From assembly GCA_033178465.1 (NCBI GenBank), contig GCA_033178465.1_4726.1: a stretch of DNA of 63,111 nucleotides. One strand, written 5' to 3'. Origin of the DNA: a phage. Of this stretch, positions 893 to 29,077 are shown piece by piece. The translations under genes and the position numbers were made by a program. The notes beneath the pieces are model-generated. The model ran no database searches, was not told where the DNA came from, and was given only the letters and a program-made list of their open reading frames with translations. Numbering within the stretch: the first letter of the stretch is position 1; every line of letters begins with the position of its first letter.

Positions 893-3800
893 ATGGCGAC
901 ATTCTTACCTGACGATAAGCAGGATCTGGTTGACCAACTCAATGTACTAAATAAAACAAATATCCCGGCTGATGGTATCGCAGTCACTGCTGTTGGCGAT
1001 AGTCAAAAACTTGACGGTGTTGGAAATTACACAGGGACGGTTACGGTTAATAAACCAAAACGGTCATTCGCGACACTGTTTCCGTTCGGTGCGATCATGA
1101 AAAAAGAAACCGGTAACGAGGATGTTACTGGCCGCGCTGCACTCGCGTTATTGAACGAGCAGTTCCATCTGACGATTGCAGAAAGTTATTTCACAGAAGA
1201 ATCTTTAAATGCAACATACCAGTTAGGGACATGGAACAGCATCTCCGCACAAATCGCTTTAGAACCAACCAAGGATAACCCTTACTGGAAAGATACGTTG
1301 TTCATCTCAATGTATCGGTCAACGCTAGGTGCTTTGGAGGCATCTGATGCAAGCGCATCATCGAGTATTTATGTTGATTTAGGATCGGCTAGAAAAGCGT
1401 TCAATCTGAATCGTACCGGCGTATACAAGTTACCTTTACCAACAACGTCCAGTAGTGTACCGGACCGTTATGAATGGTGTCAGTTATTAGAAATTACACC
1501 ATCGGTTGTTGGCGGGCAGATTGACTGGAGCAACTACTTAACGCTGGAGCCGTTAACGCCGACGTTCCCAGTGATGGAAATCGATACAACCTATTACTTC
1601 CTGCTTTGGACATTTAACCGTAAAGATTGGTACGTGAAACAAATCACCGCATCGGAGCGTTATAACGATGTTGCTCAACTTATTGGTAAATGGGTGCTTA
1701 CAGCGTCGCCGGTTAATTTCGTTGGTTATGGTCATGCAAGATTCTTAACCCGAAACACAGGAACGTTTACCGATCCAGAAACCGATCATTACGTGTTAAA
1801 TGAAAGCGGGGTAATGGTAAACAACCGTCATTTCATTGCAGCAACACGACAAGAAGCGCAACCGGATGGTGACGCAACAACAGAAGGACAGTCGTTGTTA
1901 ATTCTGGGTGCGGGTATATTCAGTCATACAACGGATGACACCAAGCTTAAAGCGCATTATCTCACATTAGCAGAGGCATCGTTCGATGCGTATATAAAAG
2001 CGTTCTACGCAGGCCTTGAACCACCGGATACACCGACACGCTGGATCGCTAACTGGATCGTTAATGGTAAGCAACCGGTGTTGGCTCATTATCCTCTTGC
2101 AAAAGACGATTACCCAACACACGGGGGTTTCCATGACACAGCGGTTACATTCACCAGCGGTATCGGGAAAATAACACACGGTGCACCCACGTTCGGGGAA
2201 TACATGGATCTTGTTGTTCAGGTCTATGAGGGTAAACTCGGCTGGCAGAATTTGAACGCCGATGTGTTCAAAACCAATGATGAGGGGACGATTGACTGGG
2301 ATACAAAGGGTACAGTGTTCCCTATCGAGAAAGTTGCGTTACGCACAAAACGATACGTAAGTGCGGACGGGGACGATCTTGAAGCGTGTACTGACGATGA
2401 GGTAGGTACCATCGTACTCAAAGATAAATCCGTCAGCGGTTCTTATTTGGTTGCGTGGGCACCCCGCGTTCCTGTTGAATATGGCGGATACCTCATCAAA
2501 ACGAACGAGTGTCAGCATAACCGACCGATCCAGGTGCCGGTCACCAGAGACTACATGGGAAACGCGTCAGACGCTGAACAGTGGTTTTGTGAAGCAGCCT
2601 ACACCTTATATCGTTTAACGCAGCAGGAGCGTTATCAGAAAGCGTACAAGGCATCTTTGTTTACGATTGAAGAATATACCCGTATTGACGCTAACGATAA
2701 GTTCTTCCGTCAAGTAAAAGGAACCGATCGTTACGACACCGACGGTATCGCTTACACGTATACCTATCCATCGAAAGCACCGTTCACAATCACACGCGAT
2801 ACTGATGGCTGGATCGTGATTCAAGCATCTTCAGCACAAATTTACCTTGAACAGCAGGCCATTCCGTTCCGCGTCAATCGTGATTCAATTCTTCGGGTAA
2901 CCTGCGGCGGTAAAGATACAGCAGGTGTTGCAATTCCGGTTGAGATCTCATTATCGCTTTCTTTGGACAAAACCGAAGCGAAAGCCAAAACGTACAAGCT
3001 GGTATTACCTTCCAGCGCTGAACCGAAAGGATGGGATTTCAAAATAGGCTCATTGATTCCTGCTGATGCGGTTGATGAAGCTTCAACGCCAACCGGTGAT
3101 GCTGTTACAGGTTCTGTGTTGATATCGGCTGATAAAGTCGGCTGGAAAGACGATGTCGCCATCACAACAGAATTCAGCGAAGCGGTGGAAGATTCCTGGG
3201 ATGGGTTGTTCTTAAAAGCGCAGCTTACTGCGGCAGGCGGGCAATTTGAATTCAACCCAACCGCAAAACAGATCGTAAGACAGGTCAGTTATTTCGCGTC
3301 GATTGACTACAACGTTCGTGTAGAAGATGCAAATGGTTGGCGATGGTGGTATATGCTACCGGCCACCACAGCAAGAAATACATTGACGCTTTCGGCGAAC
3401 GGATGGACGCTTTCAGGGTATCAACCGGGCCACGCTGATACTGACCCTAGACCTTCTGCACCTGTGTGGGGCGATGGCTCAACTGAAATTCTGTTCTTGC
3501 CTGACGACAGCGATATCGCTGAAGGGGTATTTAAGCTCTACGCCATCAACAATCCGCCGTCAACTTACACCACGGATGACGGATACACCATGTTGTTTAC
3601 GTTAAAAGCAATCTTTGAGGCAGAGGGCACATTGCGTGTTGGCGATTGCACGATTGTCAACCAACGTCTGGATCCATTGCCTTATACTCCGGGTATTATT
3701 CCGTTCTCTAACAACTATATCCCTAACGCACCGACGTTCGACAGCTGGCGTGGTCAGCCTTATCCCGGCTACCAACATCCATGGGTCTTCCTGGATATGG

Positions 3801-4489
3801 ACGTATCGGCTGAACGACGTGACCTCATGATTCAGAATGTTGTGAATTTCTGGTATGACTCACAGCAGTGGTACTATCAGAAATTCGGTGTTTTAGGGCC
3901 AGGGGCAAGTGCGTACGTGTGGGATCGTTGGGATGCGCCAAGCGGATCAAAAGTTAATGATTTTACGATGTACCACTTCGGCGATCAGACAGCATGGTCT
4001 GGTTATCAGCCGAGGGCTTTCTTTTCAGCGGTGCGGCTTTATGCTGGACTGCTTGATCGTGGTTTAGCCGTCCCTGAGAAATTAACCACTTACATCAGTC
4101 ATTGGATTGATTTCTTGTTTACGTATCAACAGGAAAACGCTTATCAATCTCCTACGGATTTTCCGATGGATAAACCCCCTGCTTTTATCCCTAATGACTT
4201 TACTGGTCACATGGCAGGATTATGGTTGGCTGGTGCGTCGTTAGCAATGTTGTACGGACATCCCAACGATAAAGGCTATTCTGTTGCTGTTAATGCGTAT
4301 AACGAAATCGTTGAGAACTACATCAACCGCTACACCGTTGATGACGTAATGAACGGTGGGTGGAGTCCCGCACCAGATAGCGCTAATCTCGGCAGAGACG
4401 GAATGTATTTTGGTTTCTGGAGTGGGGAGATCCTCCGAGGATTAGGCTATTATATTGCCTTATTACGTGATGTAAAACCGACAATTTAA
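893..4489 (+). CDS. large putative virion protein, possibly tail fibre/tailspike-like receptor-binding protein (function inferred from context only)
   Basis: 1198-aa ORF, ATG with AAGGTGGAG RBS; follows the small adaptor-module gene exactly as fibre gene 5230-9198 follows 4696-5223; Trp/Tyr/Gly-rich; no motif recognised. Confidence 0.5.
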   Translation: MATFLPDDKQDLVDQLNVLNKTNIPADGIAVTAVGDSQKLDGVGNYTGTVTVNKPKRSFATLFPFGAIMKKETGNEDVTGRAALALLNEQFHLTIAESYFTEESLNATYQLGTWNSISAQIALEPTKDNPYWKDTLFISMYRSTLGALEASDASASSSIYVDLGSARKAFNLNRTGVYKLPLPTTSSSVPDRYEWCQLLEITPSVVGGQIDWSNYLTLEPLTPTFPVMEIDTTYYFLLWTFNRKDWYVKQITASERYNDVAQLIGKWVLTASPVNFVGYGHARFLTRNTGTFTDPETDHYVLNESGVMVNNRHFIAATRQEAQPDGDATTEGQSLLILGAGIFSHTTDDTKLKAHYLTLAEASFDAYIKAFYAGLEPPDTPTRWIANWIVNGKQPVLAHYPLAKDDYPTHGGFHDTAVTFTSGIGKITHGAPTFGEYMDLVVQVYEGKLGWQNLNADVFKTNDEGTIDWDTKGTVFPIEKVALRTKRYVSADGDDLEACTDDEVGTIVLKDKSVSGSYLVAWAPRVPVEYGGYLIKTNECQHNRPIQVPVTRDYMGNASDAEQWFCEAAYTLYRLTQQERYQKAYKASLFTIEEYTRIDANDKFFRQVKGTDRYDTDGIAYTYTYPSKAPFTITRDTDGWIVIQASSAQIYLEQQAIPFRVNRDSILRVTCGGKDTAGVAIPVEISLSLSLDKTEAKAKTYKLVLPSSAEPKGWDFKIGSLIPADAVDEASTPTGDAVTGSVLISADKVGWKDDVAITTEFSEAVEDSWDGLFLKAQLTAAGGQFEFNPTAKQIVRQVSYFASIDYNVRVEDANGWRWWYMLPATTARNTLTLSANGWTLSGYQPGHADTDPRPSAPVWGDGSTEILFLPDDSDIAEGVFKLYAINNPPSTYTTDDGYTMLFTLKAIFEAEGTLRVGDCTIVNQRLDPLPYTPGIIPFSNNYIPNAPTFDSWRGQPYPGYQHPWVFLDMDVSAERRDLMIQNVVNFWYDSQQWYYQKFGVLGPGASAYVWDRWDAPSGSKVNDFTMYHFGDQTAWSGYQPRAFFSAVRLYAGLLDRGLAVPEKLTTYISHWIDFLFTYQQENAYQSPTDFPMDKPPAFIPNDFTGHMAGLWLAGASLAMLYGHPNDKGYSVAVNAYNEIVENYINRYTVDDVMNGGWSPAPDSANLGRDGMYFGFWSGEILRGLGYYIALLRDVKPTI

Positions 4490-22848: not shown

Positions 22849-22891
22849 TCGCCCTATCCCAACTAACATTTAGATTAAAAAAGAGGTGAAT

Positions 22892-23386
22892 ATGGATAAG
22901 AAAGTTGAAATGCATGGTATTTGCGGGCGTCCTGCGGAAACGTCTAAAATAAAGGATAGGGTATCAGCTCTTCTCAATTTAGTGCCCAATACCGTACTAG
23001 TTGCATGTTGGGATATTATCGACACAACGATGCTGCGATTCGAGGCGAATTTAAGGAACAACAGTTGCTGGAGTCCCGCTTTGTCGGTTGACGATAAAGT
23101 CTATCTCGTAAACGAGACAACCGATAAAGATAATAATCGTATCGATCGTTGGCGTTTTGCGTTGCACGACAACGTTGTTAGTATCGACGTTATACTGAGT
23201 ATAACAGGTGAATCGTGTATTGCTGTCAATGAAATAGCGGCATACGCCAAACTAAAATTAGCACAGTGTTTTCATTCGCGTGTCCGAGGATTCGATATGC
23301 CCGTTATACTAACAATCAACGGGCACGACGGTTCAGGGCTGTTCGAATTCCACTACGATCCCGACAATGAAAATACAGAAGAGTAA
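22892..23386 (+). CDS. small protein, member of tandem paralogue family (C-terminal …EYxPDNE motif)
   Basis: ATG at 22892 with AAGAGG RBS; C-terminus (…FDMPVILTINGHDGSGLFEFHYDPDNENTEE) paralogous to 23460-23921 and 23921-24385. Confidence 0.7.
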   Translation: MDKKVEMHGICGRPAETSKIKDRVSALLNLVPNTVLVACWDIIDTTMLRFEANLRNNSCWSPALSVDDKVYLVNETTDKDNNRIDRWRFALHDNVVSIDVILSITGESCIAVNEIAAYAKLKLAQCFHSRVRGFDMPVILTINGHDGSGLFEFHYDPDNENTEE

Positions 23387-23400
23387 TTAATCAACGATAT

Positions 23401-23425
23401 CGTGTCCCTTGTTAGGTGGGACACG
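23401..23425 (+). terminator. hairpin after 22892-23386
   Basis: CGTGTCCC-TTGTTAGGT-GGGACACG inverted repeat. Confidence 0.5.
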
Positions 23426-23459
23426 TATCGGTTAAAAGGTGTCGAAGGTGTTAAAAAAA

Positions 23460-23921
23460 ATGACGACATGGGATTCTTACGGTGAGCAGCTGGTAGAATC
23501 GATAATTAAAAGCTTTGAAATACTCGAAGTAAGATTGCAGGAGGACGGGTGCTGGGAATTATTTAACGAGCCCGATTCCGACTCCGAACCTTACTTCTAC
23601 AACCTATCCGTTCCAACAACACAACACGGCAATGCTACGATTGTAGATATCACCGACATCAGAGTTTACAATAATCGTATCGCTGCGACAGCACAATTAC
23701 CTTTCAGCGTAAACGGGCTTGCCGCAAAGCAACTTCTAATGTATACAGCCAACGAGACATTTGGTAAATGCATAAAGTCGCACGGTATCTCGTTCCCCCT
23801 AGCGATCGATTATGAATTATCGGATGGCTGCAATCTCGTTACATTGGAGTATGAACCAGATAATGGAACAGAGAGTGCTGTTATCTCTGTTCCGATGAAG
23901 ATGAAGAAAGAGGTAGAATAA
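23460..23921 (+). CDS. small protein, member of tandem paralogue family
   Basis: C-terminus QLPFSVNGLAAKQL…ISFPLAIDYELSDGCNLVTLEYEPDNGTE; start assigned to ATG at 23460 (alternative GTG 23439/23448 possible). Confidence 0.65.
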   Translation: MTTWDSYGEQLVESIIKSFEILEVRLQEDGCWELFNEPDSDSEPYFYNLSVPTTQHGNATIVDITDIRVYNNRIAATAQLPFSVNGLAAKQLLMYTANETFGKCIKSHGISFPLAIDYELSDGCNLVTLEYEPDNGTESAVISVPMKMKKEVE

Positions 23922-24385
23922 TGGCAACAACGTATTCATTCGAATCTAACGTCAACGAACTTTTCGACTCGCATAAAGACGCTTACGTCACGCCTGTTGC
24001 TGACACCGTCACTCGAAGTATCGAATCTCTCAAACAAAATCTACGCAAATCCGATATTTGGTCGGTGGGACATAGCGATAATGACGGGACGTATTTTACC
24101 ATCGTGGAACGCATCCCAACAATACCGTTCCATAGCGTTTATCTCGACAGTACCGTTGTTTTCTATGTTTACAAGCACCGTATCCTTATCAACATACAAC
24201 TACCATTCAGCGTCAGCGGGGTTGATGCTATACGTCGGTTGTCTGATGTTGCTAATAACGCATTTACGAAATCAGCTATGCCGTGCGATTTCCCTATTAC
24301 GGTAACACTCAAGTTTTCCGATGGTTATGAATTCTACACGATGGAGTACTCTCCAGATGAAGAAGGAACTAACACCAAAGAGTAA
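23921..24385 (+). CDS. small protein, member of tandem paralogue family
   Basis: C-terminus QLPFSVSGVDAIRRL…DFPITVTLKFSDGYEFYTMEYSPDEEGTN; TAATG overlap with previous gene. Confidence 0.7.
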   Translation: MATTYSFESNVNELFDSHKDAYVTPVADTVTRSIESLKQNLRKSDIWSVGHSDNDGTYFTIVERIPTIPFHSVYLDSTVVFYVYKHRILINIQLPFSVSGVDAIRRLSDVANNAFTKSAMPCDFPITVTLKFSDGYEFYTMEYSPDEEGTNTKE

Positions 24386-24972: not shown

Positions 24973-25458
24973 ATGAACATCAACTTTACTATCGAATCCG
25001 GCGATTACATGAACGATCGTGATATCATCCCATTCTACCGTGAGGATTTCCGCAACGCTATTCTTAAAACGATTGAGGATGTCTTGGATCTCGCTGAAGA
25101 TCAACTTAGCAGCATCACCCCTGAAACACACGTAAAAGCACGTGACGAAGCTCTGGGTGACTTGTATATACCTAAAGCCTGTGATCGCTGCTGCTTCACT
25201 GATTTCTTCGTGTCTACGCAAGCGGTCGTTACCGACGATGGGAAGCATCACGTGATCCTTATCTTGGCTTCTCATGAGCCTATGATCAATCACGCACTTT
25301 CTTTTACACCCGGGTACATCTATGCCCTTGCAAACAAGCCGATGATCAACGAAATCATTGCTGACATCCTTAGTCAGATTTGCAAAGAACATGGATTCCT
25401 GTCTATTTTCTTAACCGACGCTGACTACAAAGTAACGGTTGGTAACGAACGCGCATAA
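24973..25458 (+). CDS. hypothetical small protein
   Basis: 161-aa ORF, AGGAG RBS; followed by GC-rich hairpin 25463-25499. Confidence 0.65.
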   Translation: MNINFTIESGDYMNDRDIIPFYREDFRNAILKTIEDVLDLAEDQLSSITPETHVKARDEALGDLYIPKACDRCCFTDFFVSTQAVVTDDGKHHVILILASHEPMINHALSFTPGYIYALANKPMINEIIADILSQICKEHGFLSIFLTDADYKVTVGNERA

Positions 25459-25462
25459 ACCT

Positions 25463-25499
25463 CCACCCCTCCCTCCGGCTTCCGCCAGGGGGGAGGGGC
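25463..25499. terminator. GC-rich hairpin between convergent blocks (after 24973-25458)
   Basis: CCCCTCCCTCCGGC-TTCC-GCCAGGGGGGAGGGG followed by CTTCGCATGCG and TTTTCTTTTTG. Confidence 0.5.
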
Positions 25500-26297
25500 T
25501 TCGCATGCGTTTTCTTTTTGTTAGGCGAGGATCAACGGGATGACCCTTATCGTATCACTTGAATCATTCGATGGTCCGCGCTTCCTCTTTCGGACGCGTC
25601 GCATCGAAATGCTCTAAGAGTTCAAACATCGATGGTGCTTTATAAACGATTCTACAGAAGTCTACAGCGTTCGTTTTACCTCCGGTAATAAAGTTGATAC
25701 CTAACTTCCTGAATTGATAGTCAGAGACGCCCTCAATGCGTGATAGCTCACGGAAAACACAGGCTCTGGATAGATTCAACAGGATCTGCCCGTTTGGATA
25801 ACTTGAAGATATATCGAGCTCTTACGATGGCTCAGTAATTTCTATACATGAACACAACGAAAAATAGACCATATCTTAGCCTGTCTTAGATTCGCGTTAG
25901 CAAACCAAACGGTGTTTCTACAACACCTCGACCGACTTCTCCCTTTTCAGAGAATATCCTAATTCTCCTACTCCGCGCAACCGGATGGTCGTTGAACGTT
26001 ACCCGTAGCCTGTCCGTGTTAACCACGCCGACTTATGAAGCCGGTCACGACAGTCCGTAGGGTCTTCGCTGCTACGGTTACCTTATTTCTATCTTCTACC
26101 CTTAGTACCACTGTCGCCTTTCGCTATCCAAGAAAGCAGTGGCTTTTATTGCAACATAGGTAATCCCCTCCAACTTTTTTCTGTCTTTCGACAACCATCA
26201 CGTTTACCCTTTCGGATTGCGTTGTGGTGTGGAGGGGCATTAAAGGTTTCCAGCAATTAAAGAGAGTTCGCCCACTCATTACAAGTAGGGGGACCTG

Positions 26298-27488
26298 TTA
26301 TCGTTCTAATGGAACATTAAATACACGCTTCTTCTTAGGAACTAATTTATTAACATCGAAATCAGGCATGGCGGCAATATCATCAGCGTAGCGGAAGCAC
26401 CAAGGTTGTTTCGTAGGTACTGCGCGTCTATCACAATGGCGACGTACGGTAATCCAGGAGATTCCTAACGCATTTGCAGCAGCAGTTACCGATGGGAACA
26501 CATGTCGCTCGTTCGTCTCTTTATTAATAGCAAGAATACCACGACCATCGGTGTCCTCGACGCGACGATCTTCTCCGAGTTTCCACTCAGGCCAAGGCGT
26601 ATTATCCGTGGCAAACTTGATGTACAAATCGCATTCTGGAATACGTTTTGGTGGATTGTTCACCCACCATTTGAAACGTCCTTTCGGCACGTACGGATAA
26701 GCACGTTCCGCTTCTGCGATACTATTAAAACGACGTTCGATTCGTGCACGGTAATCATAAACCAAAACAGGTTTTGACGTACCTATACACAACCCTGCCA
26801 TACGAGCATGTTGATTGTTCTCAGCATATGTTGCCCATTCGAGGTTATCAAACCAATCGTCACCTTTAATTCCGTTCTTATGGTTTACGGTTAAGTTAAC
26901 AACGTTAGCGTCATATCTCGTAAACGCTAACATGATAGCTCGATGACGATACAATTGCGGTGTAAACCCGCTATCAGGAACCACTTTACGATAAGCGTAT
27001 CCGCCAAGACGCGTACCCTGTTGAACCGTTTTCGTCCACGTGATAGGATCCAACGAAAGAAGACTAATACAGTGTCCTTCTTTATTTATCGCGTAACGAG
27101 ATGCGAACGGAATATAACAATAACCTTCGAATCCCTCAACTTCTAACGGCCCATTACGGAAACGATAGATGTGATTGTTATACGAAAAGTTAGTCGGATC
27201 TCCATCCACAAACAACGATTCAATTTCATCGTAAAGATGGTCTGGTAAAACAACCCGTTCGAGAGCAGTGAGAACGATCATGCCGAGATCGTATTTTCCA
27301 ACGCCTCTATACCAATCGATTTCAACATAAGGGACACCATCTACAACTTCGTAAGGGACGACCCTATCTTCTTTATAGTCGTACAACTCGCCATCTTCAA
27401 ATATACGATAACGACGATTGGTATACGGTAAATAAGCTGAATCTCGATAGTCAATAGTTCCAGTTTGAGTATGTATAGATTTTTCCAT
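26298..27488 (-). CDS. HNH homing endonuclease with C-terminal helix-turn-helix-like DNA-binding motifs
   Basis: 396-aa ORF; HNH motif NHKNGIKGDDWFDNLEWATYAENNQHA; C-terminal FPSVTAAANALGISWITVRRH resembles homing-endonuclease HTH/NUMOD-type motifs; free-standing next to a DNA-metabolism gene. Confidence 0.8.
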   Translation of the reverse strand: MEKSIHTQTGTIDYRDSAYLPYTNRRYRIFEDGELYDYKEDRVVPYEVVDGVPYVEIDWYRGVGKYDLGMIVLTALERVVLPDHLYDEIESLFVDGDPTNFSYNNHIYRFRNGPLEVEGFEGYCYIPFASRYAINKEGHCISLLSLDPITWTKTVQQGTRLGGYAYRKVVPDSGFTPQLYRHRAIMLAFTRYDANVVNLTVNHKNGIKGDDWFDNLEWATYAENNQHARMAGLCIGTSKPVLVYDYRARIERRFNSIAEAERAYPYVPKGRFKWWVNNPPKRIPECDLYIKFATDNTPWPEWKLGEDRRVEDTDGRGILAINKETNERHVFPSVTAAANALGISWITVRRHCDRRAVPTKQPWCFRYADDIAAMPDFDVNKLVPKKKRVFNVPLER

Positions 27489-27577
27489 CTCGTAAACCTC
27501 ATGTAATATCTAGATGTATCGGCCTCTCTTATGCCGCACACAATTCTTACATGAAGTAAACTTTTACAGAACGAAGG

Positions 27578-29077
27578 TTAATCCGCAACAAATAATCGAA
27601 TATAGCTCCTTAAATTAGGCATATCCCAGAATAGATGAATGCCGTTGTCCGCCATGAGATCGCACGGTAATGTGACGATATGTCCGGTTCGTGAGATAAC
27701 CCACTTATCTTCTTCCTGGGTCATGTCGTCAGCGGTACATCCCATGACTTCCCCACGGTTAAGATAAACGAAGAAAAGTTTATCGCAGATACGTTTAGGG
27801 TTAGAACTGAAATCCTTCAAATCCGATGCCGCTAAACGAATCGGGATGGTCATCGAATAGTCTTTTGTTTTCTGGTCCAACGCCTCGATGCCTTGGTTAT
27901 CCCAAAGGTTATATACGCCGTAGTCGATTTGATGGTTCGTTTGCATCTCTTCGTGCCACGCAAGCTCCGTGAACCCCTCTGTACCAGGAATCGCTTTTAA
28001 TTTCGTATGGCATTTATTTCGCTCTAATACCGCATCGAGTGAATAGCGTCCTTCATCCGGTCTTCCTAAACGAACGAACTTATAACCACACATCGCATCC
28101 ATAACCTGATACGTAGCCATCGTATAAAACATCGGCCAGGTCTGCTCAAGGGTAAGGTTGGTTTTACGACCTGAAGCAGATACCTTGTCGGTCTTCGGTG
28201 GTACCCAGCGAGCAATACGATATTTAGGTGGTACACGAGGATCGGAGAAAACATCCTCGGGACGATACCCTTCCTCGTTCAGCGCCTGGAGCATGCGTGG
28301 AATATCGAACGCGATATTCCAGCCAAGGAGATAATCCGGCTGCCATTCGTGAACCTTCTGCATGCATTGGATGACCGCTTGCGCCGGACTTTCTACGATT
28401 CGCACATCGTAATGATATTTTTCGAACGCATGAGGATCTTCTTTGGTGTTCAGACGTTCGGCCAGGTAATATCGAATCTTCTCGTGGGTTTTCTCAATCG
28501 CATTCGGAATATGACCAACGAAGTCCTTGGTATAGCAAAGTATCGCATTGTATCCCATTGTAATAGACATACAGACGATCTTACCGTGCCCGTGGACAAC
28601 GTCGGTTTCGATATCGAAACAGGCAATGGAAGCGGGTAATTTATCGACGTATTCCGGCCATTTTGTATTGTATTGGGTTTTTAAATAACAGCTGGCGCTA
28701 ACGTCCGTACCATAGAGGTATGGACTCCGGGCGAGCTGTTGTAAACGGGTGTTATCGTCAGCACGTCTTTTATAAAGCACCGAACTGATCTTTTCAACCA
28801 GTTCACTTTGGCGGACATCATAGCGACGCACATGCGAGAGCTTCTCGCTTTCCTTTTTATATTTGTTCTTGCGTTTACTCTCTACTGTCACCCAAAACGG
28901 ACGTTTGTAATTCTCAAAGAAGCGAAGGTTCGTCGCTTGCGTATTATCATCGAAGAACACGATCTCTTTTGCGATCATGAGGTCGTTCTTGCTGCCATCG
29001 TTCGCTTCGTTATAGCTGATGTGTCGACATTGAATACCGAGCAGTTTCTTCTTAGGTTTTCGTTCTTGTTCGCTCAT
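27578..29077 (-). CDS. DEDD-type 3'-5' exonuclease domain protein (candidate proofreading/split DNA polymerase fragment)
   Basis: 499-aa ORF; motifs CFDIETD (Exo I), LLGWNIAFDIP (Exo II), YGVYNLWD (Exo III-like); no polymerase palm motifs seen in this ORF. Confidence 0.55.
   Translation of the reverse strand: MSEQERKPKKKLLGIQCRHISYNEANDGSKNDLMIAKEIVFFDDNTQATNLRFFENYKRPFWVTVESKRKNKYKKESEKLSHVRRYDVRQSELVEKISSVLYKRRADDNTRLQQLARSPYLYGTDVSASCYLKTQYNTKWPEYVDKLPASIACFDIETDVVHGHGKIVCMSITMGYNAILCYTKDFVGHIPNAIEKTHEKIRYYLAERLNTKEDPHAFEKYHYDVRIVESPAQAVIQCMQKVHEWQPDYLLGWNIAFDIPRMLQALNEEGYRPEDVFSDPRVPPKYRIARWVPPKTDKVSASGRKTNLTLEQTWPMFYTMATYQVMDAMCGYKFVRLGRPDEGRYSLDAVLERNKCHTKLKAIPGTEGFTELAWHEEMQTNHQIDYGVYNLWDNQGIEALDQKTKDYSMTIPIRLAASDLKDFSSNPKRICDKLFFVYLNRGEVMGCTADDMTQEEDKWVISRTGHIVTLPCDLMADNGIHLFWDMPNLRSYIRLFVAD

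What the first reader, a model, noticed from the sequence alone, without database searches (positions are those of the whole stretch)
26298..29077. Free-standing HNH homing endonuclease beside a DEDD exonuclease-domain gene lacking polymerase motifs (possible split replication enzyme)
26298-27488 has a clear HNH motif (NHKNG…DNLEW…ENNQH) plus HTH-like C-terminal motifs, typical of mobile homing endonucleases. The upstream gene (27578-29077) has Exo I/II/III-like motifs (FDIETD, GWNIAFDIP, YNLWD) but I see no palm motifs (DxxSLYPS, YGDTDS), so the polymerase function, if any, must be on another polypeptide. A homing endonuclease at the 3' end of such a fragment may mark a gene-splitting or insertion hot spot.
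Basis: partly seen in the sequence, partly recalled or inferred. Interest (0 to 1): 0.5.

Follow-up and report, generated by a model that had tools for sequence, protein, structure and literature searches.

The report
Mobile intron inside phage DNA polymerase
The "free-standing" nuclease gene sits inside a self-splicing group I intron that interrupts a jumbo phage's DNA-polymerase gene at its active-site motif. This is a familiar kind of selfish element, but it is unannotated here and is present in some near-identical phages and absent from others.

Summary
Both ORFs and their motifs are real, but the reading "free-standing HNH beside an exonuclease-only gene" is wrong in its key part.

The window is a relative of Escherichia phage Goslar (96% nt identity), a nucleus-forming jumbo phage. 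A 1,762-nt group I intron (27580..25819, minus strand) interrupts the gene for the N-terminal subunit of its phiKZ-type family-B DNA polymerase. The 499-aa ORF is exon 1. The HNH/NUMOD1 gene lies in the intron's P1 loop. An unannotated 84-codon exon 2 (25818..25564) follows the ribozyme core.

The splice falls inside polymerase motif A (FVAD|LDISSSYPN). An uninterrupted 583-aa gene from a close relative is 99% identical to the predicted spliced product and reads identically across the junction.

Motifs B and C do lie on another polypeptide (Goslar gp244, outside the window). That split is lineage-wide and already known; the HNH gene did not cause it.

Among Goslar-like phages the intron is present in some and absent in others. 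A 79-nt exon tract around the insertion site holds 26 of the 88 differences, all synonymous. Introns occupy this and neighbouring positions in other chimalliviruses, including unannotated ones in PhiPA3 and HPP-Temi.

It is a new member of a known kind.

The parts
27581..29077 (-). Exon 1 of the PolB N-terminal-subunit gene (499 codons, ending ...FVAD). It carries Exo I (28601-28618), Exo II (28304-28321) and Exo III (27899-27913).
   Evidence: ORF list. phrog_3011 'DNA polymerase' matches profile positions 5-494 of 576. Invariant exonuclease residues. Fold matches RB69 gp43 and related polymerases.
25819..27580 (-). Group I intron, 1,762 nt. The 5' splice site follows U27581 (GCGGAU|UAAC) and the intron's first three bases supply the UAA that ends the 499-aa ORF. 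The 3' splice site follows G25819 (UAAGAG|CUCGAU).
   Evidence: Rfam RF00028 hit. Exon junction fixed by the uninterrupted allele P0001/L016. The same AD|LD junction occurs in L021 and L022.
26298..27488 (-). Intron-encoded HNH/NUMOD1 homing-endonuclease gene (396 aa). HNH motif at 26808-26885, NUMOD1 at 26436-26525. It has its own GAGG Shine-Dalgarno 8 nt before the ATG. It lies in the loop of P1, between the 5' splice site and the internal guide sequence.
   Evidence: Pfam and PHROGs. 30% identity to PhiPA3 gp210, E=4e-21. 33% identity, E=1e-53, to the HNH in the intron at the same site in L021. 32% identity to the HPP-Temi intron HNH. ORF-less versions of the same introns (L022, PhiPA3) have a short P1 loop at this place.
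26289..26299 (-). AACAG-GUCCCC element. The favoured internal guide sequence (GUCCCC, 26294-26289) pairs with exon GCGGAU (27586-27581), including the U27581-G26294 wobble.
   Evidence: AACAGGUCC is conserved in the ORF-less intron at the same site in L022, and AACAGAUGUCCCC occurs in L021. An alternative guide sequence, UUAGUUC at 26339-26345, gives 7 bp with GGAU|UAA. The assignment is not settled.
25839..26289 (-). Ribozyme core.
- P2: 26289-84 / 26276-71
- P3: 26266-59 / 25946-39
- P4: 26255-50 / 26077-70
- P5: 26246-43 / 26084-81, with a long P5 extension (26237-26108) carrying GAAA tetraloops
- P6: 26063-60 / 26004-01, plus P6a/b
- P7: 25990-86 / 25871-67
- P7.1: 25985-82 / 25975-72
- P7.2: 25967-62 / 25955-50
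- P8: 25936-30 / 25885-79, plus two hairpins
- P9: 25864-60 / 25843-39
   Evidence: Rfam alignment. All 105 hand-modelled pairs are canonical in the window. Against Goslar there are 3 compensatory double changes, 6 one-sided changes that keep the pair, and 1 broken pair. RNAalifold on six introns finds a compensatory change in 19 of 34 predicted pairs.
25564..25818 (-). Exon 2: 84 codons plus the stop codon (LDISSSYPNGQILLNLSRACVFRELSRIEGVSDYQFRKLGINFITGGKTNAVDF...). It holds the catalytic Asp and SYP of polymerase motif A (25795-25818). It is unannotated in the Goslar record.
   Evidence: Exon 2 alone matches phrog_3011 positions 495-571, E=6e-19. The spliced protein scores 596 bits against 504 for exon 1 alone. 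SPN3US gp44 tblastn hit. Gap-free alignment to phiKZ gp82, RP31 and a Vibrio phage homologue. 99% identity overall to the uninterrupted P0001, with no amino-acid differences near the junction.
25792..27633 (-). Exon tract linked to the intron, from -52 to +27 nt around the junction (27633-27581 and 25818-25792). It holds 26 synonymous differences from the intron-less allele.
   Evidence: 26 of 88 differences fall in 79 of 1,752 nt (binomial P about 1e-14). 18 of 22 codons differ there, against 62 of 562 elsewhere, and no amino acid changes. Haplotypes compared in four intron-less alleles.

Best explanation
The region 29077..25564 (minus strand) is one gene for the N-terminal subunit (N-terminal, exonuclease and first palm segment with motif A) of the two-subunit, phiKZ-type family-B DNA polymerase of a Goslar-like nucleus-forming phage. 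A mobile group I intron interrupts it.

Inferred mechanism: the pre-mRNA folds into a group I ribozyme. Exogenous guanosine attacks after U27581, which forms a U-G wobble in P1 with the guide sequence downstream of the HNH ORF. The freed exon 1 then attacks after the terminal G25819, joining GCG GAU to CUC GAU. The product is a 583-aa protein reading ...FVAD-LDISSSYPN....

The HNH/NUMOD1 protein is encoded in the P1 loop with its own ribosome-binding site. By analogy with relatives, it is a site-specific DNA endonuclease that nicks or cuts intron-less copies of this polymerase gene near the motif-A codons. Repair from an intron-containing genome then copies in the intron plus short flanking exon tracts (homing).

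Shown here: the exon structure, the ribozyme core, the exon junction, presence/absence polymorphism, and the linked exon tract.

Inferred, not shown: actual splicing, endonuclease activity and its target.
For: 1. Rfam RF00028 match across the full model at 25844-26362(-): 45.9 bits, E=1.4e-9. It is the only Rfam hit in the 63-kb window.
2. Exon 2 continues the family profile. phrog_3011 coverage rises from 5-494 to 5-570 of 576 and the score from 504 to 596 bits. Exon 2 alone gives E=6e-19.
3. Intron-free homologues run straight through the junction: phiKZ gp82, RP31 ORF248 and a Vibrio phage, and 284 of 291 phage records.
4. P0001, an uninterrupted 583-aa gene on a 237-kb ENA contig, is 99% identical to the predicted spliced product, differing at four residues, all far from the junction.
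5. Structure is conserved against Goslar: 12 of the 13 substituted bases that lie in helices keep their pair, including 3 compensatory pairs.
6. Introns at the identical AD|LD position occur in distant chimalliviruses. L022 is ORF-less with Rfam 79.7 bits. L021 has a homologous HNH, E=1e-53.
7. Introns 6 nt downstream occur in PhiPA3 (71.7 bits, ORF-less) and HPP-Temi (59.2 bits, with HNH).
8. Goslar, an isolated lytic phage, carries the same interruption in this conserved polymerase gene, so the gene must be expressed through it.
9. Both forms are common. 499-aa and 583-aa proteins share one 90% cluster and each is seen on dozens of contigs.
Against: - The Rfam score is below the family's gathering cutoff (45.9 vs 50).
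- P1 is short: 4 pairs, a C-C mismatch, then 1 pair in the favoured register. A second candidate guide sequence exists. P10 is at most 2 bp.
- The helix model is hand-built, and the only very close comparator is Goslar.
- There are no RNA data, so splicing itself is inferred.
- Sequence-only searches of the PDB found nothing significant for either protein.
Confidence: 0.93

Rival explanations
1. One reading: a free-standing HNH homing endonuclease has inserted between two separately translated polymerase fragments (a 'fractured' gene), and no RNA splicing occurs.
For: Exon 1 ends with a stop codon, and the HNH gene has its own ribosome-binding site. The lineage already tolerates a polymerase made of two polypeptides.
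Against: - A full-length group I core lies between the HNH gene and exon 2, and substitutions there preserve structure.
- Exon 2 has no start codon where homology begins. The first in-frame start is TTG at 25779, 13 codons in, which would discard the motif-A Asp and SYP.
- ORF-less introns occupy the same site in L022 and PhiPA3.
Confidence: 0.03
2. The intron is a decayed, non-splicing remnant. The polymerase N-subunit gene is a pseudogene or works truncated at residue 499.
For: The Rfam score is below the gathering cutoff, and P1 and P10 are weak.
Against: - D499, D501, Y506 and P507 of motif A are invariant in 97 homologues, so losing exon 2 should inactivate the enzyme.
- Exon 2 is under purifying selection: its 9 differences from the intron-less allele within 27 nt of the junction are all synonymous.
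- The cultured phage Goslar carries the same arrangement.
- Core substitutions are compensatory.
Confidence: 0.03
3. The synonymous tract around the junction is not a homing or co-conversion footprint. It would be either selection on exon bases for P1/P10 pairing and splicing, or chance recombination with a diverged relative.
For: Positions -1 and -4 (GAU and GCG, against GAC and GCA in all four intron-less alleles) are exactly the bases P1 needs.
Against: - Pairing can account for only about 6 nt of a 79-nt tract.
- Three adjacent Ser codons are switched between codon families.
- The downstream haplotypes also segregate among intron-less alleles, with a mosaic allele present. This fits recombination at a cleavage site better than a splicing constraint.
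Confidence: 0.2

Closest known systems
Group I introns with HNH nicking endonucleases in phage DNA-polymerase genes: SPO1/SP82 (I-HmuI/II), Bastille (I-BasI), Pf-WMP3 (I-PfoP3I). These are cited in PMC11620839 and PMC12908238; details are from my own knowledge.
   Same: A self-splicing group I intron in an essential phage replication gene, inserted at a conserved catalytic motif, carrying an HNH-family endonuclease with NUMOD-type DNA-binding modules. There is a weak direct match of the HNH motif to I-HmuI (1u3e, E=0.62).
   Different: The host gene is the N-terminal subunit of a split, phiKZ-type family-B polymerase, whereas I recall the SPO1 enzyme as Pol I-like. The ORF sits in the P1 loop. 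The host is a nucleus-forming phage, so the endonuclease must reach DNA inside the phage nucleus. No biochemical data exist for this one.
PhiPA3 gp210 intron in an RNA-polymerase beta-subunit gene (Birkholz et al. 2024, PMC11620839)
   Same: Chimallivirus host and a putative group I intron inserted right after conserved Asp codons. The HNH protein is homologous (30% identity over 237 aa, E=4e-21).
   Different: A different host gene (RNA polymerase rather than DNA polymerase). gp210's nuclease activity and its role in competition were demonstrated; here they are only inferred.
Unannotated introns in the same polymerase gene of PhiPA3 (gp085, ORF-less) and HPP-Temi (with HNH)
   Same: Same gene and same motif A. 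P1 uses exon GGAU followed by an intronic UAA stop. In HPP-Temi the HNH sits in the P1 loop and is the closest phage-database relative of this HNH outside Goslar (32% identity, E=1e-40).
   Different: They are inserted after ADLD, 6 nt downstream of the window's AD|LD site. Their cores were not picked up in the blastn search with this core.
Split-subunit DNA polymerase of phiKZ-related phages (OBP; SPN3US gp44 + gp18; PMC5694885, PMC5105663)
   Same: The spliced 583-aa protein is the counterpart of SPN3US gp44 and phiKZ gp82. The partner with motifs B and C corresponds to SPN3US gp18 and Goslar gp244.
   Different: That split is at the protein and gene level, lineage-wide, and unrelated to the intron. 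The intron lies about 80 codons before the natural end of the subunit.

Membership tests
Group I self-splicing intron (Rfam RF00028) | Match to the family covariance model at or above the curated gathering score | tested here: inconclusive
   45.9 bits against a cutoff of 50, E=1.4e-9, across the full model 1-253. Introns in the same gene score above the cutoff: L022 79.7, PhiPA3 71.7, HPP-Temi 59.2.
Group I self-splicing intron (Rfam RF00028) | Conserved core helices P3-P9 supported by covariation | tested here: met
   All 105 modelled pairs are canonical. Against Goslar there are 3 compensatory changes, 6 pair-keeping one-sided changes and 1 break. Across six introns, 19 of 34 predicted pairs carry compensatory changes.
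Group I self-splicing intron (Rfam RF00028) | U at the end of the 5' exon, paired to G of an internal guide sequence, and a terminal G at the 3' splice site | tested here: met
   GCGGAU|UAAC and UAAGAG|CUC. All four intron-less alleles have C at -1 (GAC), while intron-bearing alleles have U. Which G is the partner is not settled: 26294 is favoured, 26342 is the alternative.
Group I self-splicing intron (Rfam RF00028) | Guanosine-dependent self-splicing that yields ligated exons | not testable with these tools
   Needs in-vitro transcription and splicing, or RT-PCR. Indirect support: an uninterrupted allele reads identically to the predicted ligation product across the junction.
Intron-encoded HNH homing endonuclease (I-HmuI / PhiPA3 gp210 type) | HNH (His-Me finger) catalytic motif | tested here: met
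   VNHKNG...DNLEW...ENNQH. Pfam HNH_3 scores 20.8 bits, slightly under its cutoff. PHROG 59 gives E=4.8e-18. The motif aligns with gp210 and I-HmuI.
Intron-encoded HNH homing endonuclease (I-HmuI / PhiPA3 gp210 type) | NUMOD/HTH DNA-binding modules C-terminal to the nuclease | tested here: met
   Pfam NUMOD1 scores 29.5 bits, above its 22.8 cutoff, at residues 322-351.
Intron-encoded HNH homing endonuclease (I-HmuI / PhiPA3 gp210 type) | Encoded within the intron rather than between genes | tested here: met
   The ORF (27488-26298) lies between the 5' splice site (27581|27580) and the guide sequence and core. ORF-less relatives have a short loop at that place.
Intron-encoded HNH homing endonuclease (I-HmuI / PhiPA3 gp210 type) | Site-specific cleavage of the intron-less allele, and homing | not testable with these tools
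   Indirect evidence only: presence/absence polymorphism among >90%-identical phages and an intron-linked synonymous exon tract.
Family-B DNA polymerase, phiKZ-type split form, N-terminal subunit | Exo I/II/III motifs of the 3'-5' exonuclease domain, and a family-B fold | tested here: met
   Invariant D155/E157, N254/D258 and Y389/D393. AlphaFold2 model: pLDDT 87.9, pTM 0.82. The 50 best Foldseek PDB matches listed are all family-B polymerases, the best being RB69 gp43 at E=2e-12. Pfam DNA_pol_B_exo1 scores only 15.9 bits, under its cutoff.
Family-B DNA polymerase, phiKZ-type split form, N-terminal subunit | Motif A (DxxSLYPS-like) with the catalytic Asp | tested here: met
   ADLDISSSYPN is formed only after splicing. 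D499, D501, Y506 and P507 are invariant. This part of the model has low confidence (pLDDT <50 at residues 498-515).
Family-B DNA polymerase, phiKZ-type split form, N-terminal subunit | Motifs B and C and the thumb on a separate partner polypeptide | tested here: met
   They are absent from the window (SPN3US gp18 tblastn finds no hit). They are present in Goslar gp244 at 174-176 kb (KLDNNSLSG, GVLSDTDS).
Free-standing homing endonuclease gene | Located in an intergenic region, not inside an intron or intein | tested here: not met
   The gene is flanked by the two halves of one coding sequence and by ribozyme elements.

The most novel reading that the evidence does not exclude
The intron's HNH endonuclease is currently active in Goslar-like phages of E. 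coli and Salmonella and acts as a weapon as well as a selfish element, as PhiPA3 gp210 does. It would cut the DNA-polymerase gene of co-infecting intron-less relatives. On this reading, the recoded haplotype downstream of the junction in some intron-less alleles (AGC AGT TCA for TCT TCA AGY, with neighbouring silent changes) is an endonuclease-resistant 'immune' target, and the upstream tract linked to the intron is a co-conversion footprint. Introns of related families at AD|, ADLD| and neighbouring positions would then make motif A of the chimallivirus polymerase a long-running battleground.
Probability: 0.25. Interest if true: 0.6.

Novelty: new member of a known kind. Interest (0 to 1): 0.4.

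Why it matters
- It corrects the annotation of a key replication gene in Goslar, the E. coli model for nucleus-forming phages. gp068 is missing its last 84 codons, including the motif-A catalytic Asp, and gp069 is intron-encoded. PhiPA3 gp085 needs the same kind of correction.
- Anyone expressing, deleting or modelling this polymerase subunit needs the spliced 583-aa sequence.
- The intron is present in some near-identical phages and absent from others, and the exon tract beside it has been recoded. This gives a tractable natural system for testing homing, co-conversion and target-site immunity where genomes replicate inside separate phage nuclei. That is the setting in which an intron endonuclease was shown to mediate competition between phages (PMC11620839).

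Tried and rejected
- **P1 assignment.** I considered guide sequences in the 92 nt before the HNH ORF (GUUCUG, GUUUAC). They give 4 bp or fewer, mostly wobbles, and are not conserved in L021 or L022, so I rejected them. UUAGUUC (26345-26339; 7 bp, resembling the PhiPA3 P1) is kept only as an alternative. GUCCCC (26294-26289) is favoured because AACAG-GUCC recurs in introns at the same site.
- **Other splice registers.** The stop codon at 25824-25822, the need for U at -1 and G at the intron's end, and the uninterrupted allele exclude them.
- **PDB sequence searches.** Both the HNH protein and a 4-sequence polymerase profile gave nothing significant. Fold comparison was needed instead.
- **Partner subunit.** Goslar gp039, annotated 'polymerase', is not the partner: SPN3US gp18 finds no hit there. 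PHROG scans of ten other window ORFs found no second polymerase piece.
- **Searches for more alleles.** A degenerate junction pattern found nothing in IMG/VR. Complete E. coli genomes hold no match. The HNH protein finds only two IMG/VR contigs: one identical to the window over this gene, and Goslar.
- **Polarising the tract.** A 67%-identical outgroup gave a split answer: 10 sites match the window, 9 match the intron-less allele, 3 match neither.
- DNA for the commonest intron-less protein, P0122, could not be fetched.
- **Literature.** I found no description of this intron.
Full report
**What the window is.** The region is 96% identical in DNA to Escherichia phage vB_EcoM_Goslar, a nucleus-forming jumbo phage. 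The Goslar record annotates gp068 'DNA polymerase' (499 aa) and gp069 'NUMOD1 domain protein'. It annotates nothing over the next ~820 bases. The 499-aa protein is on record from an NCBI 'Escherichia coli' contig of exactly 63,111 bp, which is the length of this window.

**Checking the observation.** Both ORFs are at the stated coordinates on the minus strand.
- The 396-aa protein matches Pfam NUMOD1 above its cutoff and HNH_3 just below it. It matches PHROG 59 'HNH endonuclease' at E=4.8e-18.
- The 499-aa protein matches phrog_3011 'DNA polymerase' at E=1e-150, but only over profile positions 5-494 of 576. Roughly 80 positions at the C-terminus were therefore missing.

**Finding the missing end.** Uninterrupted homologues continue past '...(I/V)AD' with 'LD(I/V)S.SYPN ... 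EGVSE ... GINLTGG.TNA(V/I)E'. These are phiKZ gp82 (638 aa), Ralstonia phage RP31 ORF248 (627 aa) and a Vibrio phage protein (586 aa).
- The minus-strand frame at 25818..25564 reads the same continuation: LDISSSYPNGQILLNLSRACVFRELSRIEGVSDYQFRKLGINFITGGKTNAVDF....
- Joining 29077..27581 to 25818..25564 gives a 583-aa protein. It covers phrog_3011 positions 5-570 at 596 bits, against 504 for exon 1 alone. Exon 2 alone scores E=6e-19.
- The joined protein aligns without a gap across the junction to the three homologues. SPN3US gp44 hits both pieces by tblastn.

**What lies between the two pieces.** Rfam finds a full-length match to the group I intron model at 25844-26362(-): 45.9 bits, E=1.4e-9, with a gathering score of 50. 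It is the only Rfam match in the whole window at E<=0.001. The layout is therefore:
- exon 1;
- 5' splice site after U27581 (GCGGAU|UAAC; the intron's first three bases are the stop codon of the 499-aa ORF);
- 92 nt of intron;
- the HNH ORF;
- the ribozyme core;
- the terminal G25819;
- exon 2.

The intron is 1,762 nt long.

**Proof of the junction.** A protein search with the predicted spliced product returned P0001, a 583-aa protein that is 99% identical over its full length. It reads ...RLFVADLDISSSYPNGQ.... It is encoded without interruption on a 237,273-bp ENA contig. The two coding sequences are the same length and align codon for codon, with four amino-acid differences, none near the junction. 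The stop codon at 25824-25822, the U at -1 and the G at the intron's end leave no other splice register.

**RNA structure.** I built the helices by hand from the Rfam alignment (P2-P9, with P5, P6 and P8 extensions, GAAA tetraloops, and P7.1/P7.2). I then checked them by script.
- All 105 modelled pairs are canonical in the window.
- Of the 18 core substitutions against Goslar, 13 fall in helices. They comprise 3 compensatory double changes (26138/26112, 26124/26116, 26038/26034), 6 one-sided changes that keep the pair, and 1 break in a doubtful 2-bp tip.
- RNAalifold on six introns from this gene finds compensatory changes in 19 of 34 predicted pairs.
- P1 is the weak point. The favoured guide sequence is GUCCCC (26294-26289), preceded by AACAG. 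The ORF-less intron at the same site in L022 has AACAG-GUCCUGC pairing with its exon GCAGAU, and L021 has AACAGAU-GUCCCC with exon GCGGAU.
- An alternative guide sequence, UUAGUUC (26345-26339), gives 7 bp and resembles the PhiPA3 P1. In either case the HNH ORF lies in the loop of P1.

**The polymerase.** In 97 homologues the Exo I (D155, E157), Exo II (N254, D258) and Exo III (Y389, D393) residues are invariant. So are D499, D501, Y506 and P507 of motif A. The intron sits between codons D499 and L500.
- An AlphaFold2 model of P0001 with that alignment has pLDDT 87.9 and pTM 0.82. Confidence is low over the motif-A segment, as expected for a palm fragment without its partner.
- The 50 best Foldseek matches in the PDB listed are all family-B polymerases: RB69 gp43 (E=2e-12), T4, Pol epsilon and E. 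coli Pol II.
- Motifs B and C are not in the window. SPN3US gp18 carries them and finds nothing here. Its Goslar counterpart, gp244 (717 aa; KLDNNSLSG, GVLSDTDS), lies at 174-176 kb, about 93 kb from gp068.
- The literature already describes a 'split subunit DNA polymerase' in phiKZ-related phages, first seen in OBP and present as gp18 + gp44 in SPN3US (PMC5105663, PMC5694885).

**The endonuclease.** It shares 30% identity over 237 residues (E=4e-21) with PhiPA3 gp210, including VNHKNGIKGDD..DNLEW. gp210 is the intron-encoded HNH nuclease shown to cut a rival phage's RNA-polymerase gene (PMC11620839). It is 33% identical (E=1e-53) to the HNH in the intron at the same site in L021, and 32% identical (E=1e-40) to the HPP-Temi one. 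Its activity and target here are inferred, not shown.

**Distribution.**
- A junction-spanning probe finds 291 phage records. In 284 the junction is contiguous. The interrupted ones I identified are Goslar, HPP-Temi and PhiPA3.
- HPP-Temi has exon 1, an HNH gene, a core scoring 59.2 bits, and exon 2.
- PhiPA3 has an ORF-less intron scoring 71.7 bits, with a compact P1 hairpin GGAU|UAA-AUA-UUAGUCC. It is not annotated in the record.
- Comparison with the intron-free PA1C places the HPP-Temi and PhiPA3 insertions after ADLD, 6 nt downstream of the window's site.
- Among the 120 best metagenomic homologues, 20 are truncated ORFs. Most end at ...AD, at ...ADLD, or a few codons later. Three stop or diverge about 35 codons earlier.
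- I checked two of the '...AD' cases at the DNA level. Both have group I introns exactly at AD|LD: L021 (GCG GAT|TAA ..., exon 2 TTA GAC GTA) and L022 (GCA GAT|TGA ..., exon 2 CTA GAC GTA; 79.7 bits).

**Polymorphism and the exon tract.** The 499-aa (intron-bearing) and 583-aa (intron-less) forms fall in one 90%-identity cluster. Each is seen on dozens of ~240-kb contigs, many labelled Salmonella enterica or E. coli. The HNH cluster has 51 members.
- The window's spliced CDS differs from the intron-less CDS at 88 of 1,752 positions. Of these, 26 lie between -52 and +27 nt of the junction and all are synonymous. That is 18 of 22 codons, against 62 of 562 elsewhere (binomial P about 1e-14).
- Three adjacent Ser codons are switched between the TCN and AGY families.
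- Goslar shares the window's tract (3 differences). Outside the tract the three sequences are about equally distant from one another.
- Four intron-less alleles all carry ...ATC CGT CTA TTC GTT GCA GAC upstream. The intron-bearing alleles carry ...ATT CGA TTA TTT GTT GCG GAT, and the U at -1 and G at -4 are the bases P1 requires.
- Downstream there are two haplotypes. One intron-less allele has the window type, and one is a mosaic.
- An outgroup does not polarise the changes cleanly.
- I read this as the footprint of homing: co-conversion upstream, and possibly target-site resistance downstream. That reading is an inference.

**Comparison and verdict.** Group I introns carrying HNH endonucleases in phage DNA-polymerase genes are classic (SPO1/SP82, Bastille, Pf-WMP3, as cited in PMC11620839 and PMC12908238). 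A related endonuclease in a chimallivirus RNA-polymerase intron has been studied in depth. I found no description of this polymerase intron. The Goslar record annotates its other group I intron, in an RNA-polymerase gene, but not this one.

This is a new member of a known kind. Its practical value is for annotation, and it shows a clear population-level signature. Interest is moderate (0.4).

Noticed in passing
whole window (63,111 bases): The exon-1 protein is on record from an NCBI 'Escherichia coli' contig of exactly 63,111 bp. Goslar-like ~236-248-kb contigs carrying these proteins appear in many Salmonella enterica and E. coli isolate assemblies, yet complete E. coli genomes hold no match. 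This suggests phage carriage or contamination in isolate sequencing.
   Followed up: partly
window 22886-24385 (+): Three adjacent ~155-166-aa genes (22886-23386, 23439-23921, 23921-24385) are paralogues (BLASTP E=1e-16 to 1e-4). They sit in a run of similar-sized small genes of unknown function just downstream of exon 2.
   Followed up: partly
window 25466-25498 (-): A long G+C-rich hairpin (CCCCUCCC...CUGGC-GGAA-GCCGG...GGGAGGGG) lies between the end of exon 2 (25564) and the convergent + strand ORF ending at 25458. It looks like a bidirectional terminator, which fits the polymerase gene ending here rather than at 27578. I saw it by eye; the terminator scan did not list it.
   Followed up: no
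Goslar NC_048170.1 168235-170910 (L011 23236-25911), outside the window: Goslar has a second group I intron, annotated as 'Intron_gpI' ncRNA, with an HNH endonuclease (gp186) in an RNA-polymerase beta-subunit gene. This parallels PhiPA3 gp210. tblastn with the window's HNH found two places in Goslar.
   Followed up: no
L014 (PhiPA3 NC_028999.1) 3657-3998: PhiPA3's DNA-polymerase gene gp085 is annotated as ending at ...ADLD*. It is actually interrupted by an ORF-less group I intron (Rfam 71.7 bits), with an unannotated exon 2 at about 3999-4237.
   Followed up: yes
proteins P0095, P0107, P0118: Three metagenomic homologues stop or diverge about 35 codons before motif A, at ...(D/N)W|IVTLP. This may be a second interruption site in the same gene, or simply contig ends.
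   Followed up: no
L021 6429-7076: The intron at the same AD|LD site in this metagenomic phage carries a second ORF (215 aa, no family hit on record) between its HNH gene and the ribozyme core.
   Followed up: no
window 26314-26372 (-): The last ~60 nt of the HNH ORF before the stop region have no substitutions against Goslar, although the ORF averages 5.7% (P about 0.03). This is possibly an overlapping RNA-structure constraint (P1/P2 region).
   Followed up: partly
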